Source of the DNA: the human T2T-CHM13v2.0 reference genome, Homo sapiens
Assembly (NCBI RefSeq): GCF_009914755.1
Contig: NC_060931.1
DNA: 64,000 nt
Reading direction: 5' to 3' (one strand)
The first letter of the stretch is position 1, and the number at the start of each line of letters is the position of its first letter. The position numbers and the translations under genes were made by a program. Shown in pieces: positions 13,150 through 16,774 of the stretch. The notes below the pieces were generated by a model, which saw only the letters and a list, made by a program, of their open reading frames with translations, ran no database searches and was not told the origin of the DNA.

Positions 13150-13945
13150 AATGAGAAAATGTGTTCAGGGGATAAAAGAAAAAAACAAAGCCTGAAATTG
13201 ATAACCTCAAAATAAAACAATATCTTTTATGAAATAAAAATCCAGATGCACTAAAAATGGACAAATCAATTTTTTACTCACTAAATAAATGTAAGGGACT
13301 ATCTTAAAATGCAGAAATAAAAGAGGTTGATGGAAATAAAAGAAGGGAAAAAGTAAGATAGAGGTTCAATCATGGAAGTATAACATTAAGTAAACTAATA
13401 GGAGTCCCAAAAAGAAAATAAAGAGGGCAAAGGGATGAACAAAGAATAAAGACATTATTTTTAGAACTGAAGCTCATTAGTTTCCAGATGGAAAAGGCCA
13501 TCAAGCACCCAGCCCAAGAGATGAAAAAAGGAACACTATCAAGAAATTTTAGTGAAAAAAGAACACAATAGCAATACACTTTCAAAATCTGAGAGAAAAT
13601 GACTTTTAGTATATAATTATTAAATTAGTAATTAGGGAGGAGCGTGGATAGAAAAAAGGACATATTCAAAAAGGTGACATCTTAAAATTTTATTTCCCTT
13701 TTACACTCCTTTGATCCACCACTGAATGATATACCCCAGTCAATTGAGGGAGGAAACAAAAAAGGAGCAGGGTGAGATTGAAAAAATAAAAACTATTTCA
13801 ACAAAAAGAGAACAAATGATACCTAAAGAACCACTGTCCCCTGGGTACACAAAACAACCTGTCCAGATATTGGGACAAGAGAATGAAGGACTCCTGAAAA
13901 AAGAACCCTTCGACAAAATAAATTAAATAAATAAATATTGCCAAA
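13150..13945 (+). mobile_element. Ancient HAL1/L1ME-like LINE ORF1 remnant
   Basis: A-rich degenerate ORF1-like sequence ('ataggagtcccaaaaagaaaa', 'agtttccagatggaaaaggcc', 'ttcaaaatctgagagaaaatgac', 'aacaacctgtccagatattggg'). Family assignment is from recalled consensus. Confidence 0.5.
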
Positions 13946-14639
13946 TACGGATTTCTTCCAAATCTCCAATGGTAGTAGATTCTAGTTTATTGGGCTTTAC
14001 CTTAATTTCAACCTTTCTGACTGGTTTTGACTTAGATGAAGCTCCTGAAAACAGTACATGTCTGGGCTTTGGTTTTTGTTTTTGTTTTTTGTTTTTTGTT
14101 TTTGAGACGGAGTCTGCACTCCACCCAGGCTGGAGTGCAGTGGCGCGATCTCGGTTCACTGCAAGCTCTGCCTCCTGGGTTCACGCCATTCTCCTGCCTC
14201 AGCCTCCCGAGTAGCTGGGACTACAGGCACCCGCCACCACGCCCAGCTAATTTTTTGTATTTTTAGTAGAGACGGGGTTTCACCATGGTCTTGATCTCCT
14301 GACCTCGTAATCCCCTTGCCTCGGCCTCCCAAAGTGCTGGGATTACAGGCGTGAGCCACCGCGCCCAGCCTGGGCTTTGGTTTTTTATCCGATGTAATAA
14401 TTCGTGTCGTTTAGTTGATGAGAATAATTTGTTTACTTTTACTGAAAGCAGTGATATGTTTGCACTTACTTCCATTGTCTTTTCTCTGTTTCTATTCTTT
14501 TAGTGTTTAGCAAATGTATTTACCTCTAGACTTTCTAACAAATCCCTATTTGTTCTATTTTTTTCTTTACCTTCAAGTACTCCAAGATTACTCATTGAAT
14601 TACTCATTGAATCCATCCTCTCATTTTGCTATTACCACC
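13661..14639 (+). repeat. Left arm (X) of ~670-bp inverted duplication, interrupted by AluY
   Basis: Reverse complement of 15755-16423 along its whole length once Alu and TSD (14078-14385) are removed; roughly 90-95% identical by eye. Track ORFs 13726..13926(+) and 16158..16358(-) are near-identical 66-aa peptides. Confidence 0.97.
14078..14370 (-). mobile_element. AluY, AluYd-like (12-bp left-monomer deletion), with 15-bp TSD
   Basis: AluY diagnostics (ggcgtgaaccc, gagcttgcagtg). Left monomer reads 'gagatcaagaccatggtgaaacc', lacking 12 nt of the AluY consensus. TSD tgggctttggttttt at 14063-14077 and 14371-14385. Confidence 0.93.
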
Positions 14640-14726
14640 ACTGCACTCCAGCCTGGGCAACAGAGTGAGAGTCAGTGTCAAAAAAAAAAAAAAAAAAGAT
14701 AAGAATATTGGGAATAAAAAGGCAAC
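14635..14726 (+). repeat. Inverted copy (C') of 16547-16643: Alu 3' end, poly(A), TSD and unique flank
   Basis: 'ccaccactgcactccagcctgggcaacagagtgagagtcagtgtc(A)n gataagaatattgggaataaaaagg' matches the reverse complement of 16551-16643, including the private 'tcagtgtc' Alu end and the non-Alu flank. Confidence 0.93.
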
Positions 14727-14979
14727 TTATGTGAAAGAAGACATAAATTTGAGCCTGTTTCCCTTATATTTCTAAGTAATGGCTTGTCCTCCATGTTACA
14801 AATTCATAGCATGTTATGGCTTATCTATGTTGCCTTTTCTAGCCCACACACCCACACCCCACTTTTATGTTATTCCTGGTTCATTTACCTCTCAATGTTT
14901 TTGTCAAACTACTCTTTTTTTAATCCATCTAAATATATGTACAGTCTTTGAATTTATAAGGCTTTTCTAAATATACTAC

Positions 14980-16105
14980 TAAAGCCAGCCAAAAACCACA
15001 AGAGAAAAGATCAGCTACTAAAAAAGCAGTAACTCAAATTACATAACTTTTCTATTGCACAAACTAACATGCTCTCATGTAAAATGCAAAATAGTCAATA
15101 AAGTTGAAACTTGGGCACACTAATTTGAAATCACATTCCACATACCCAGGAAGTTTAACCAGGTTAAACCACTCCCAGCAAAACATAATATATGAAACAA
15201 AAATATTTAAAGCTAGTAATGAGAAAATAATGATCAGCTTAAAAGCAATGAGAAATAGAATAATTGAGACTTTTCATTGGCAAAAATGAGGCTAGAAGAC
15301 AATGAAGTAGTAATGAGAAAATAATTATCAATTTAAAATTTTATACCTAGCTAAGCTGACACTCCACGGTGAGGGCAAAGTAAATCAACTTCTACACATA
15401 CAATAACTAAAAGAATTATTCAACAAGAATATAACTGATGCCGGGGGAAGGTGTGGTTTATATGAAACAATTATGAGCATAAAAATGATAAACTATGTCA
15501 ATATAACAATTTAACTATTTTTATATAAAAATAACTAATTTTTATTTTTATAAATCAAAGCTAAACTAAAACTCTAGACTAGTGCTTCTCAAAGTATGAT
15601 CATTTGATCTGCACCTGTGCATGAATTACTTGTTATTGATCTGCAGTACTTACAGAAACTGTGTGAAACTGTTTTAGATATTTGACTGCCTCAGTGTTAC
15701 TGACTGAGGAAAAAACAAACTTTTACTACTGATAGTTTGAGATGTGTGTTTCTGGGTGGTAAAAGCAAAATGAGAGGATGGATTCAATGAGTAATTCAAT
15801 GAGTAATCTTGGAGTACTTGAAGGTAAAGAAAAAAATAGAACAAATAGGGATTTTTAGAAAGTCTAGAGGTAGATACATTTGCTAAACACTAAAAGAATA
15901 GAAACAGAAAAAGACAATAGAAGTAAGTGCAAACATATCAGTGCTTTCAGTAAAAGTAAACAAATTATTATCATCAACTAAACGACACGAATTATTACAT
16001 TGAAAAAAAAACCAAAGTCCAGACATGTACTGTTTTCAGGAGCTTCATCTAAGTTAAAACCAGTCAGAAAGGTTGAAATTAAGGTAAAGACCAATAAACC
16101 AGAAA
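14980..16105 (+). mobile_element. Ancient L1M fragment (ORF1 end to ORF2 endonuclease start), with a small DNA-transposon relic at ~15580-15750
   Basis: 'gaggctagaagacaatg…attttatacctagctaagctg' resembles the ORF1 C-terminus. 'aaacgacacgaatt…gacatgtactgttttcaggagcttcatct…gaaaggttgaaattaagg' resembles the ORF2 CCxQETHL region. Confidence 0.6.
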
Positions 16106-16423
16106 TCTACTATCATTGGAGATTTGGAAGAAATCCCATTTGGCAATATTTATTTATTTAATTTATTTTGTCGAAGGGTTCTTTTTTCAGGAGTCCTTCA
16201 TTCTCTTGTCCCAATATCTGGACAGGTTGTTGTGTATACTCAGGAGACAGTGGTTCTTTAGATATCATTTGTTCTCTTTTTGTTGAAATAGTTTTTGTTT
16301 TTTCAATCTCACCCTTGTCCTTTTTTTTTTCCTCCCTCAATTGACTCAGGTATATCACTCAGTAGTGGATCAAAGGAGTATAAAAGTAAAATAAAATGTT
16401 AAGATGTCACCTTTTTAAATACG
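15755..16423 (-). repeat. Right arm (X') of ~670-bp inverted duplication (empty Alu site)
   Basis: Reverse complement of 13661-14639. It carries the un-inserted target 'aaaaaaaaaccaaagtccagac' at ~16003-16024. Confidence 0.97.
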
Positions 16424-16574
16424 GCATACAGAGAGCATTAAATGTCACTGTGTATTAAAGATAATATAATAATCCCCAAGGCTCACCAAGAAAATAGTAA
16501 AGGAGCAAAATCTAGAAAACAACCCTCCTTGCATGGTGTTTTTCTTGCTACCTTTGTATTCCCAATATTCTTAC

Positions 16575-16774
16575 TTTTTTTTTTTTTTTTTTTTTTTTGA
16601 CACTGAGTCTCACTCTGTTGCTCAGGTTGGAGTGCAGTGGTGGGATCTCAGCTCACTGCAACCTCTGCCTCCCAGGTTCAAGCAATTCTCCTGCCTCAGC
16701 CTCCTGAGTAGCTGGGATTACAGGTATTTGAGACCAACCTGGCCAACATGGTGAAACCTCATCCCTACTAAAAA
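16575..16774 (-). mobile_element. 5'-truncated, 5'-inverted AluS flanked by a 14-bp TSD
   Basis: Poly(T) plus antisense right monomer (16575-16725) joined to a sense left-monomer piece 'tttgagaccaacctggccaacatggtgaaacctcatccctactaaaaa' (16726-16774). Direct repeat cccaatattcttac at 16561-16574 and 16775-16788. Confidence 0.92.

What the first reader, a model, noticed from the sequence alone, without database searches (positions are those of the whole stretch)
13661..16643. Footprint of a ~1-kb inversion with inverted duplications at both breakpoints (X-C'-M'-X'-T-C)
Seen: segment X (13661-14639, ~670 bp without its Alu) recurs inverted at 15755-16423. Segment C (16547-16643) recurs inverted at 14635-14726, directly abutting X through a shared 5-bp CCACC microhomology (14635-14639). 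Established: an inversion made by staggered breaks, or by two replication template switches (FoSTeS/MMBIR), converts U-X-M-C-D into U-X-C'-M'-X'-C-D. Inference: this is the order seen here, with M' = 14727-15754 and ~120 bp of extra sequence T (16424-16546) at the second junction. Repeat masking alone would miss it because the arms look like ordinary LINE/Alu debris.
Basis: partly seen in the sequence, partly recalled or inferred. Interest (0 to 1): 0.8.

Follow-up and report, generated by a model that had tools for sequence, protein, structure and literature searches.

The report
Old inverted-duplication rearrangement in TFEC intron
A 670-base and a 90-base stretch of unique human DNA each occur twice in opposite orientation around a 1-kb spacer, the scar of one ancient complex rearrangement of a well-known kind, with no sign of any function.

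Summary
X (13663-14639, minus a later Alu) recurs inverted at 15755-16421: 32 mismatches in 666 aligned bases (4.8%). C (16551-16643) recurs inverted at 14635-14722. It joins X through a 5-bp CCACC overlap. In the whole T2T genome X and X' match only each other, so they are not repeat-family copies.

C is the original and C' the copy. C sits in a complete Alu with target-site duplications; C' holds only flank, poly-A and 45 bp of Alu.

The order X-C'-M-X'-T-C fits a paired-duplication inversion (dupINVdup; staggered breaks or MMBIR), a known class. Whether M was inverted cannot be tested here, because no primate outgroup is available.

The 129-bp T has no donor in the window or the genome. It is therefore more likely old local sequence than added sequence. 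Four ancestral orders remain possible, and one of them has no inversion at all.

New here: the extra divergence at the outer end of X lies almost wholly at cytosines of one strand (12 of 37, against 3 of 90 further in). This looks like a damage cluster made during the event. Elsewhere divergence is about 3%.

Verdict: real and ordinary in kind; inversion about 65% likely; low to moderate interest.

The parts
13343..13603 (+). Left flank U: remnant of an old L1 ORF1 (about frame residues 188-265), in sense on the + strand. It is outside the duplication.
   Evidence: A bridge copy, L016, carries L1 ORF1 (tblastn E 1e-7). Its frames match window 13446-13547 at 50% over 34 aa (E 1.6e-4) and 13343-13603 weakly but in line.
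13663..14639 (+). X, left arm of the large inverted duplication (669 bp once the later Alu is removed).
   Evidence: 32 mismatches and 4 one-base indels against X' over 666 aligned bases. Its only other genome match is X'.
13663..13852 (+). Outer 190 bp of X (equal to 16232-16421 in X'): a strand-coordinated cluster of differences at + strand cytosines.
   Evidence: 18 mismatches in 190 bp against 14 in 479 bp further in; scan-corrected permutation p 0.0155. C sites differ at 12 of 37 here and 3 of 90 further in (Fisher p 2e-5). Non-C sites differ at 6 of 153 and 11 of 389 (p 0.58).
14078..14369 (-). Alu inserted into X after the duplication. Target-site duplications lie at 14062-14077 and 14370-14385.
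   Evidence: X' has the unfilled site.
14635..14639 (.). CCACC microhomology at the new junction between the end of X and the Alu-internal end of C'.
   Evidence: Read. The chance of 5 bp or more is about 0.005.
14635..14722 (-). C', the inverted partial copy of C: 45 bp of Alu 3' end, an 18-A run and 25 bp of unique flank.
   Evidence: 3 mismatches in 45 Alu bases, 1 in 23 flank bases, plus one indel. It has no Alu body and no target-site duplication, so it is the copy.
14723..15754 (+). M, the single-copy spacer. Its right part holds an old L1 ORF1 C-terminal remnant (15200-15418) in sense on the + strand.
   Evidence: tblastn with a genomic L1 ORF1 frame: residues 265-342, 27% over 78 aa, E 0.023; residues 309-341, 36%, E 0.018. 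Apart from the X arm end inside the query and a weak self-inverted hit, the only genome match is a 105-bp, 75% hit on chr1.
15755..16421 (-). X', right arm of the large inverted duplication. 15926-16084 (+) encodes an old L1 ORF2 N-terminus, in line with the ORF1 remnant in M.
   Evidence: tblastn: 37.7% over 53 aa, E 2e-7 and 3.5e-6 against the whole window; alignment shown. One old L1 therefore runs through the M|X' boundary, so that adjacency is ancestral.
16422..16550 (.). T, 129 bp of single-copy sequence between X' and C.
   Evidence: No donor in the window (best non-self blastn hit 23 nt, E 0.17) or in the genome (only itself, plus the 41-nt X arm end that was part of the query).
16551..16643 (+). 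C, the original of the small duplication: 24 bp of unique flank, 24 T and 45 bp of the 3' end of a minus-strand Alu.
   Evidence: The Alu (16575-16775) has 13-bp target-site duplications, CCAATATTCTTAC, at 16562-16574 and 16776-16788. C is therefore in its original setting and the Alu predates the event.

Best explanation
This is one complex germline rearrangement in an ancestor of apes, roughly 13-25 million years ago. It left inverted second copies of two unique stretches, X (670 bp) and C (93 bp), at opposite ends of a 1-kb segment, M. The most likely form is a paired-duplication inversion (dupINVdup). Replication or repair ran through U-X and jumped at a CCACC microhomology to the other strand inside the Alu of C. 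It then copied backwards through C, M and X, giving C'-M-X', and jumped forward again. The same product can arise from two pairs of staggered breaks that are filled in and rejoined. T is most simply old local sequence that was skipped or later lost from the left copy, not new sequence. Shown: the duplications, their uniqueness, the orientation and order, C as the original, the microhomology, and the ancestral M|X' adjacency. Inferred: that M changed orientation, the mechanism and the date. The scar lies in a TFEC intron and has no evident function.
For: The order and orientation X-C'-M-X'-(T)-C are exactly those of a dupINVdup. Under free insertion of two copied pieces, only one of eight arrangements would give this order. 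X and X' are unique to each other in 3.1 Gb. C' is a fragment of an Alu plus its flank, while C is the full Alu with target-site duplications. The X|C' junction has a 5-bp microhomology (chance about 0.005). The two duplications have compatible divergence: 32 of 666 for X, and 4 of 68 plus one indel for C. An old L1 runs from M into X', so the X-M adjacency is ancestral, as all inversion models require. The cluster of changes at one strand's cytosines beside the outer end of X fits a copy that passed through a single-stranded state. If the changes were C to T or A, the changed copy is X', which is the inverted, newly made tract in the inversion models. The class is established in print. Inverted duplications were found at 17 of 29 Drosophila inversions, with a staggered-break model (PMC1885836, passages). 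dupINVdup is a named human complex-SV subclass with MMBIR/FoSTeS or multi-break repair proposed (PMC5338099, passages).
Against: No outgroup was available, so the inversion of M, the defining feature, is untested. T is not predicted by the simple model and has no donor anywhere. Every ancestor that explains T needs three new junctions, the same number as the no-inversion rival. No repeat element could be traced across U|X, C'|M, X'|T or T|C to fix which adjacencies are old. The junctions other than X|C' show microhomology of 0-2 bp under any model (read). The direction of the cytosine-site changes is unknown without an outgroup. The opposite direction (C inserted into a new X) would favour the rival.
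Confidence: 0.65

Rival explanations
1. No inversion took place. The ancestor was U-M-X'-T-C-D. A stalled replication end at the U|M boundary switched to the opposite strand and copied X' backwards. It switched again at CCACC and copied 93 bp of C backwards, then returned. The result was a two-piece inverted templated insertion (X + C') 1 kb upstream of its templates.
For: It accounts for T with no extra event: T is simply the uncopied stretch between the two templates, which fits T having no donor elsewhere. It needs three junctions, no more than any inversion model that explains T. The CCACC junction fits equally well. If the cytosine-site cluster reflects C put in by an error-prone polymerase at the start of synthesis, the changed copy would be X, as this model needs.
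Against: The order and orientation of the two pieces would match a dupINVdup only by luck (one of eight arrangements). Two-piece inverted insertions are, from recall, much rarer than dupINVdup in human catalogues. The U|X and C'|M junctions show no microhomology. The cluster is mainly C/T differences (8 of 12), the usual outcome of cytosine damage, and that reading places the changes in X', not X.
Confidence: 0.25
2. Two steps. An older, short inverted repeat (the outer 190 bp, now 9.5% diverged) already flanked the region. A later event or gene conversion extended or homogenised the arms inward (now 2.9% diverged) and may have flipped the spacer by recombination between the arms.
For: Divergence is uneven along the arm: 18 of 190 outer against 14 of 479 inner, p 0.0155. 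Growth and homogenisation of inverted-repeat arms by template switching is described in yeast (PMC8604942 and PMC13100816, abstracts only).
Against: The excess is confined to cytosines of one strand (12 of 37 against 3 of 90; non-C sites 6 of 153 against 11 of 389). Two independently ageing old copies would not show this. The outer part has no other relatives in the genome, so it is not a repeat family present twice by chance. Recombination between arms does not create C'.
Confidence: 0.06
3. The arms are chance or independent copies of the same LINE or Alu families, or an assembly artefact.
For: Part of X is L1-derived and C is partly Alu.
Against: E-values are 5e-163 and 4e-107. X and X' have no third copy in the genome. 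C' shares 23-25 bp of non-Alu flank with C. A divergence of 4.8% with a later Alu insertion in one arm rules out a recent assembly duplication.
Confidence: 0.01

Closest known systems
dupINVdup (paired-duplication inversion), a subclass of human complex structural variants (Brand et al. 2015, known only as reference 4 in PMC5338099; Collins et al. 2017, PMC5338099, passages read)
   Same: [quoted passage not shown] A replicative (MMBIR/FoSTeS) or multi-break origin is proposed. There is microhomology at a junction.
   Different: The published cases are large (kb to Mb), recent, and detected by read pairs in patients. This one is about 3 kb in all, millions of years old, apparently fixed, and read from one genome. 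It also carries 129 bp (T) that the plain model does not predict, and its inversion is not yet shown.
Inversions with inverted duplications at the breakpoints from staggered breaks, Drosophila melanogaster group (Ranz et al. 2007, PMC1885836, passages read)
   Same: Ancestrally unique sequence is duplicated in inverted orientation at both breakpoints. Duplication sizes of 46 bp to 1.9 kb (median 321 bp) bracket the 93 and 670 bp seen here. The copies decay by point changes and indels.
   Different: Those inversions span chromosomal distances and were polarised with outgroups. Here the inverted part would be only about 1 kb and no outgroup was available.
Short-range template-switch mutations in great apes (Walker et al. 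2021, PMC7954356, abstract only; discussed in PMC8755829, passages read)
   Same: The replication end switches to the opposite strand nearby and back, leaving an inverted copy.
   Different: Those events are mostly tens of bases long. This one copies 0.1-1.8 kb.
Mutation clusters from damaged single-stranded DNA during break-induced replication or break repair (PMC9262586 and PMC6786661, abstracts only)
   Same: A dense, strand-coordinated run of base changes lies next to a rearrangement junction.
   Different: Those were shown in yeast and tumours, often with the APOBEC TpC context. Here only 2 of 12 changed cytosines follow a T. The cluster is an old germline fossil and its direction is unknown.

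Membership tests
dupINVdup / inversion flanked by inverted duplications | Two different segments are each present twice, in opposite orientation | tested here: met
   X/X' and C/C'
dupINVdup / inversion flanked by inverted duplications | Order A - C' - B - A' - C along the chromosome | tested here: met
   13663-14639, 14635-14722, 14723-15754, 15755-16421, 16551-16643, with 129 bp of unpredicted T between A' and C
dupINVdup / inversion flanked by inverted duplications | The duplicated segments were unique before the event (not dispersed repeats) | tested here: met
   Genome searches find only the partner arm. C' shares non-Alu flank with C.
dupINVdup / inversion flanked by inverted duplications | The middle segment is inverted relative to the ancestral state | not testable with these tools
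   No primate outgroup is held. Repeat-continuity and base-skew substitutes gave nothing.
dupINVdup / inversion flanked by inverted duplications | Both duplications are of the same age | tested here: inconclusive
   32 of 666 (4.8%) against 4 of 68 (5.9%). They are compatible, but the small pair has little power.
MMBIR/FoSTeS product | Microhomology at the new junctions | tested here: inconclusive
   5 bp at X|C'. The other junctions depend on the unknown ancestor and show 0-2 bp under every model.
Inversion by recombination between pre-existing inverted repeats (NAHR) | The inverted repeats predate the inversion and belong to a repeat family or an older duplication | tested here: not met
   The arms are unique to this locus, and NAHR does not explain C'. 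That the arms predate the event cannot be excluded without outgroups.

The most novel reading that the evidence does not exclude
The run of changes at one strand's cytosines in the outer 190 bp of the arm is a germline fossil of damage to single-stranded DNA made during the rearrangement itself, a kataegis-like cluster kept for over 10 million years. If so, old rearrangement scars carry a readable record of which copy was newly made and from which strand. The true age of this event would also be nearer 3% than 5% divergence.
Probability: 0.35. Interest if true: 0.5.

Novelty: new member of a known kind. Interest (0 to 1): 0.3.

Why it matters
This is a clean, small and old example of a rearrangement class known mostly from patients and flies. 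It shows that such scars can be read from a single genome even where repeat masking would hide them. The one-strand cytosine cluster, if tied to the event, would give evolutionary evidence that such rearrangements are mutagenic at their junctions. It would also warn against dating duplications from raw arm divergence. No gene, exon or annotated regulatory element is touched, so no biological consequence is expected.

Tried and rejected
I then scanned 93 stop-free frames of 30 aa or more (11.9-17.6 kb). None reached a curated cut-off and none hit a transposon family convincingly.

2. Tracing repeats across the four undecided junctions:
- Genome DNA searches with U+X, T with its flanks, and C'+M found no paralogue spanning any junction.
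- tblastn with a genomic L1 copy found ORF2 only up to frame residue 65 and nothing in line beyond it in T, D or inverted U.
- The old L1 ORF1 in U could not be followed into X, M, inverted T or inverted D. Local alignment z-scores ran from -1.6 to 1.7 against 200 shuffles each.
- My reading by eye that ORF1 continues across U|X is therefore unsupported and I dropped it.
- U and M both cover ORF1 residues of about 231-265. For M this upstream extent is my reading by eye, so the conclusion that they are not two halves of one element is only tentative.

3. Base skew as an orientation clock: the standard deviation per kb (0.115) swamps the mean (-0.05), so it has no power.

4. The 66-aa open frame in outer X has no relatives. 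The one weak chrX hit is low-complexity sequence.

6. Literature: a search for TFEC + inversion + primate + breakpoint gave one unrelated paper. I found no description of this locus in that one search.

7. APOBEC as the cause of the cluster: only 2 of 12 changed cytosines follow a T.
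Full report
**The observation**

A repeat scan and a self-blastn of 12001-19000 confirm both inverted duplications.
- X (13663-14081 and 14370-14639) matches 16421-16003 and 16022-15755 inverted, at 93.6% over 420 columns and 95.9% over 270 columns (E 5e-163 and 4e-107).
- C' (14635-14722) matches C (16643-16551) at 89.2% over 93 columns (E 3e-24). Most of that difference is in the length of the A run.
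- X is split by an Alu at 14078-14369 with a perfect 16-bp target-site duplication. X' has the empty site, so this Alu arrived after the duplication.
- The CCACC at 14635-14639 is the last five bases of X (as X' shows) and also the last five of inverted C (as C shows). An overlap of that size has a chance of about 0.005 at a random join.

**These are not repeat-family copies**

The window's own genome (3.1 Gb, T2T) could be searched.
- The left part of X, with 360 bp of flank, found only itself, X', and an unrelated chr8 match to the flank.
- The right part of X found only itself and X'.
- T with its flanks found only itself and the X arm end that was in the query.
- C'+M found itself, the X arm end, one 105-bp 75% match on chr1 and one weak self-inverted hit (E 5.4).

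The tool warns that very common words are skipped and only the best candidates are scored. It did report matches of 41 nt at 90% and 105 nt at 75%, so a third copy of X or a donor of T at about 95% identity should have been seen.

**Which copy is the original**

C consists of 24 bp of unique flank, 24 T and the first 45 bp of a minus-strand Alu (16575-16775). That Alu has 13-bp target-site duplications at 16562-16574 and 16776-16788. C' has the same flank, 18 A and the same 45 bp of Alu, and then stops at the junction with X. So C is in place and C' is the copy. The Alu predates the event, and the X|C' junction is certainly new.

I used the open frames of a genomic L1 copy (L010/L014) only as a ruler.
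- X' 15926-16084 (+) encodes the start of L1 ORF2: 37.7% over 53 aa, E 2e-7, and 3.5e-6 against the whole window.
- M 15200-15418 (+) encodes the end of L1 ORF1, E about 0.02.

Both are in sense and in line on the + strand. One old L1 therefore runs through the M|X' boundary, and that adjacency is ancestral.

**What the adjacencies allow**

Each segment end had one neighbour in the ancestor. Given the two fixed adjacencies above, the outer end of X joined either U or T, and the flank end of C joined either M or T. This gives four possible ancestors:
2. U-M-X'-T-C-D, with an inserted X+C' and no inversion.
3. U-X-inv(M)-T-C-D, a dupINVdup whose right arm was T+C, with T then skipped or lost from the left copy.
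4. U-inv(T)-X-inv(M)-C-D, the mirror case of the third.

All four need three new junctions. Non-templated addition of 129 bp is not plausible.

I could not fix the undecided adjacencies.
- No paralogue spans any junction.
- L1 ORF2 cannot be followed past frame residue 65 in any direction.
- The old L1 ORF1 found in U (13343-13603, via bridge copy L016) cannot be followed into X, M, inverted T or inverted D.
- Base skew has no power.
- Pfam on 93 stop-free frames was blank.

**Weighing inversion against no inversion**

For an inversion:
- The order and orientation are exactly those of the known class. Free insertion of two pieces would give this order in one of eight arrangements.
- From recall, dupINVdup is far commoner than two-piece inverted insertions.

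Against:
- Every inversion model needs an extra step for T, whereas the insertion model explains T at no cost.

I put the inversion at about 65%, the no-inversion insertion at about 25%, and the rest on two-step histories.

**Divergence and a cluster**

X and X' differ at 32 of 666 aligned bases (19 transitions, 13 transversions, only 2 in CpG context; K2P 5.0%), plus four one-base indels. The differences are uneven.
- There are 18 in the outer 190 bp and 14 in the inner 479 bp. The best split is at 13853, and 31 of 2000 permutations did as well.
- The excess sits at cytosines of the X + strand: 12 of 37 differ in the outer part against 3 of 90 in the inner part (Fisher p 2e-5).
- All other sites differ at 6 of 153 and 11 of 389 (p 0.58).
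- At those 12 sites X' (read in X's sense) has T eight times, A three times and G once.
- Over the whole arm, X has G or C where X' has A or T at 20 sites, and the reverse at 6 (p 0.009).

The split and the base class were chosen after looking at the data, so these p-values are generous, but the effect is large.

Two old copies ageing independently would not differ in this one-sided way. A dense, strand-coordinated run beside a junction is what damaged single-stranded DNA leaves during break repair or break-induced replication in yeast and tumours (PMC9262586 and PMC6786661, abstracts only). The context is not APOBEC-like: 2 of 12 follow a T.

If the changes were C to T or A, they fell on X'. 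That fits X' having been copied from, or exposed as, the single-stranded X-sense strand, as in the inversion models. If instead C was put into a new X by an error-prone polymerase, the insertion model is favoured. Only an outgroup can tell which.

**Date**

Outside the cluster, divergence is about 3%; with it, 4.8%. From recall, human-orangutan divergence is about 3% and human-macaque about 6%. The event therefore falls roughly 13-25 million years ago. The Alu in C has, from recalled diagnostic bases, the older AluS look. The Alu inserted later into X has the AluY look. Both fit this window, but no call tested Alu subfamilies. C and C' differ at 4 of 68 non-homopolymer bases, plus one indel, which is compatible with one event.

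**Comparison with what is known**

- Inverted duplications of unique sequence at both inversion breakpoints, and the staggered-break model, were described for 17 of 29 Drosophila inversions, with duplications of 46 bp to 1.9 kb (PMC1885836, passages).
- In humans the same signature is the dupINVdup subclass of complex variants, attributed to MMBIR/FoSTeS or to repair of several simultaneous breaks (PMC5338099, passages).
- Template switching that leaves short inverted copies is documented in great apes (PMC7954356, abstract only; PMC8755829, passages).

This locus is a small, old and apparently fixed member of that kind. It lies in a TFEC intron, far from the listed exons and the one listed enhancer (hub annotation), and nothing suggests a function.

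**Verdict**

Novelty: a new member of a known kind. Interest is low to moderate. The strand-specific cluster is the one feature worth a follow-up with primate alignments.

Noticed in passing
window 13104-13457 (+); locus L003 1501-1854 (chr8, minus strand): This 354-bp stretch of the left flank has one 95.5% copy on chr8, followed there by an A run. The window has AATAAA at 13446-13451, just before the copy's end. It looks like a retrocopy of a + strand transcript that ended here, of about the same age as the rearrangement.
   Followed up: partly
window 16575-16775: The Alu that holds C has two parts. 16568-16724 runs the same way as the Alu in X, but 16747-16779 is inverted relative to it (rows; I7 and I11), all inside one pair of target-site duplications. 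This is the layout expected from twin priming.
   Followed up: partly
window 15214-15244 and 15308-15338: A 31-nt direct repeat (90% identical, 94 bp apart) lies inside the spacer M, within the old L1 ORF1 remnant (D4).
   Followed up: no
window 13343-13603 and 15200-15418: Two separate old L1 ORF1 remnants, both in sense on the + strand, lie in U and in M. By my reading by eye they overlap in ORF1 coordinates (about residues 231-265). If so, they are not halves of one element.
   Followed up: partly
window 36623-36739 (+): This is the only other L1 ORF2-like stretch in the 64-kb window found with the 905-aa frame of a genomic L1 copy (48.7% over 39 aa, E 1.5e-4). The window is poor in recognisable L1 coding sequence.
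   Followed up: no
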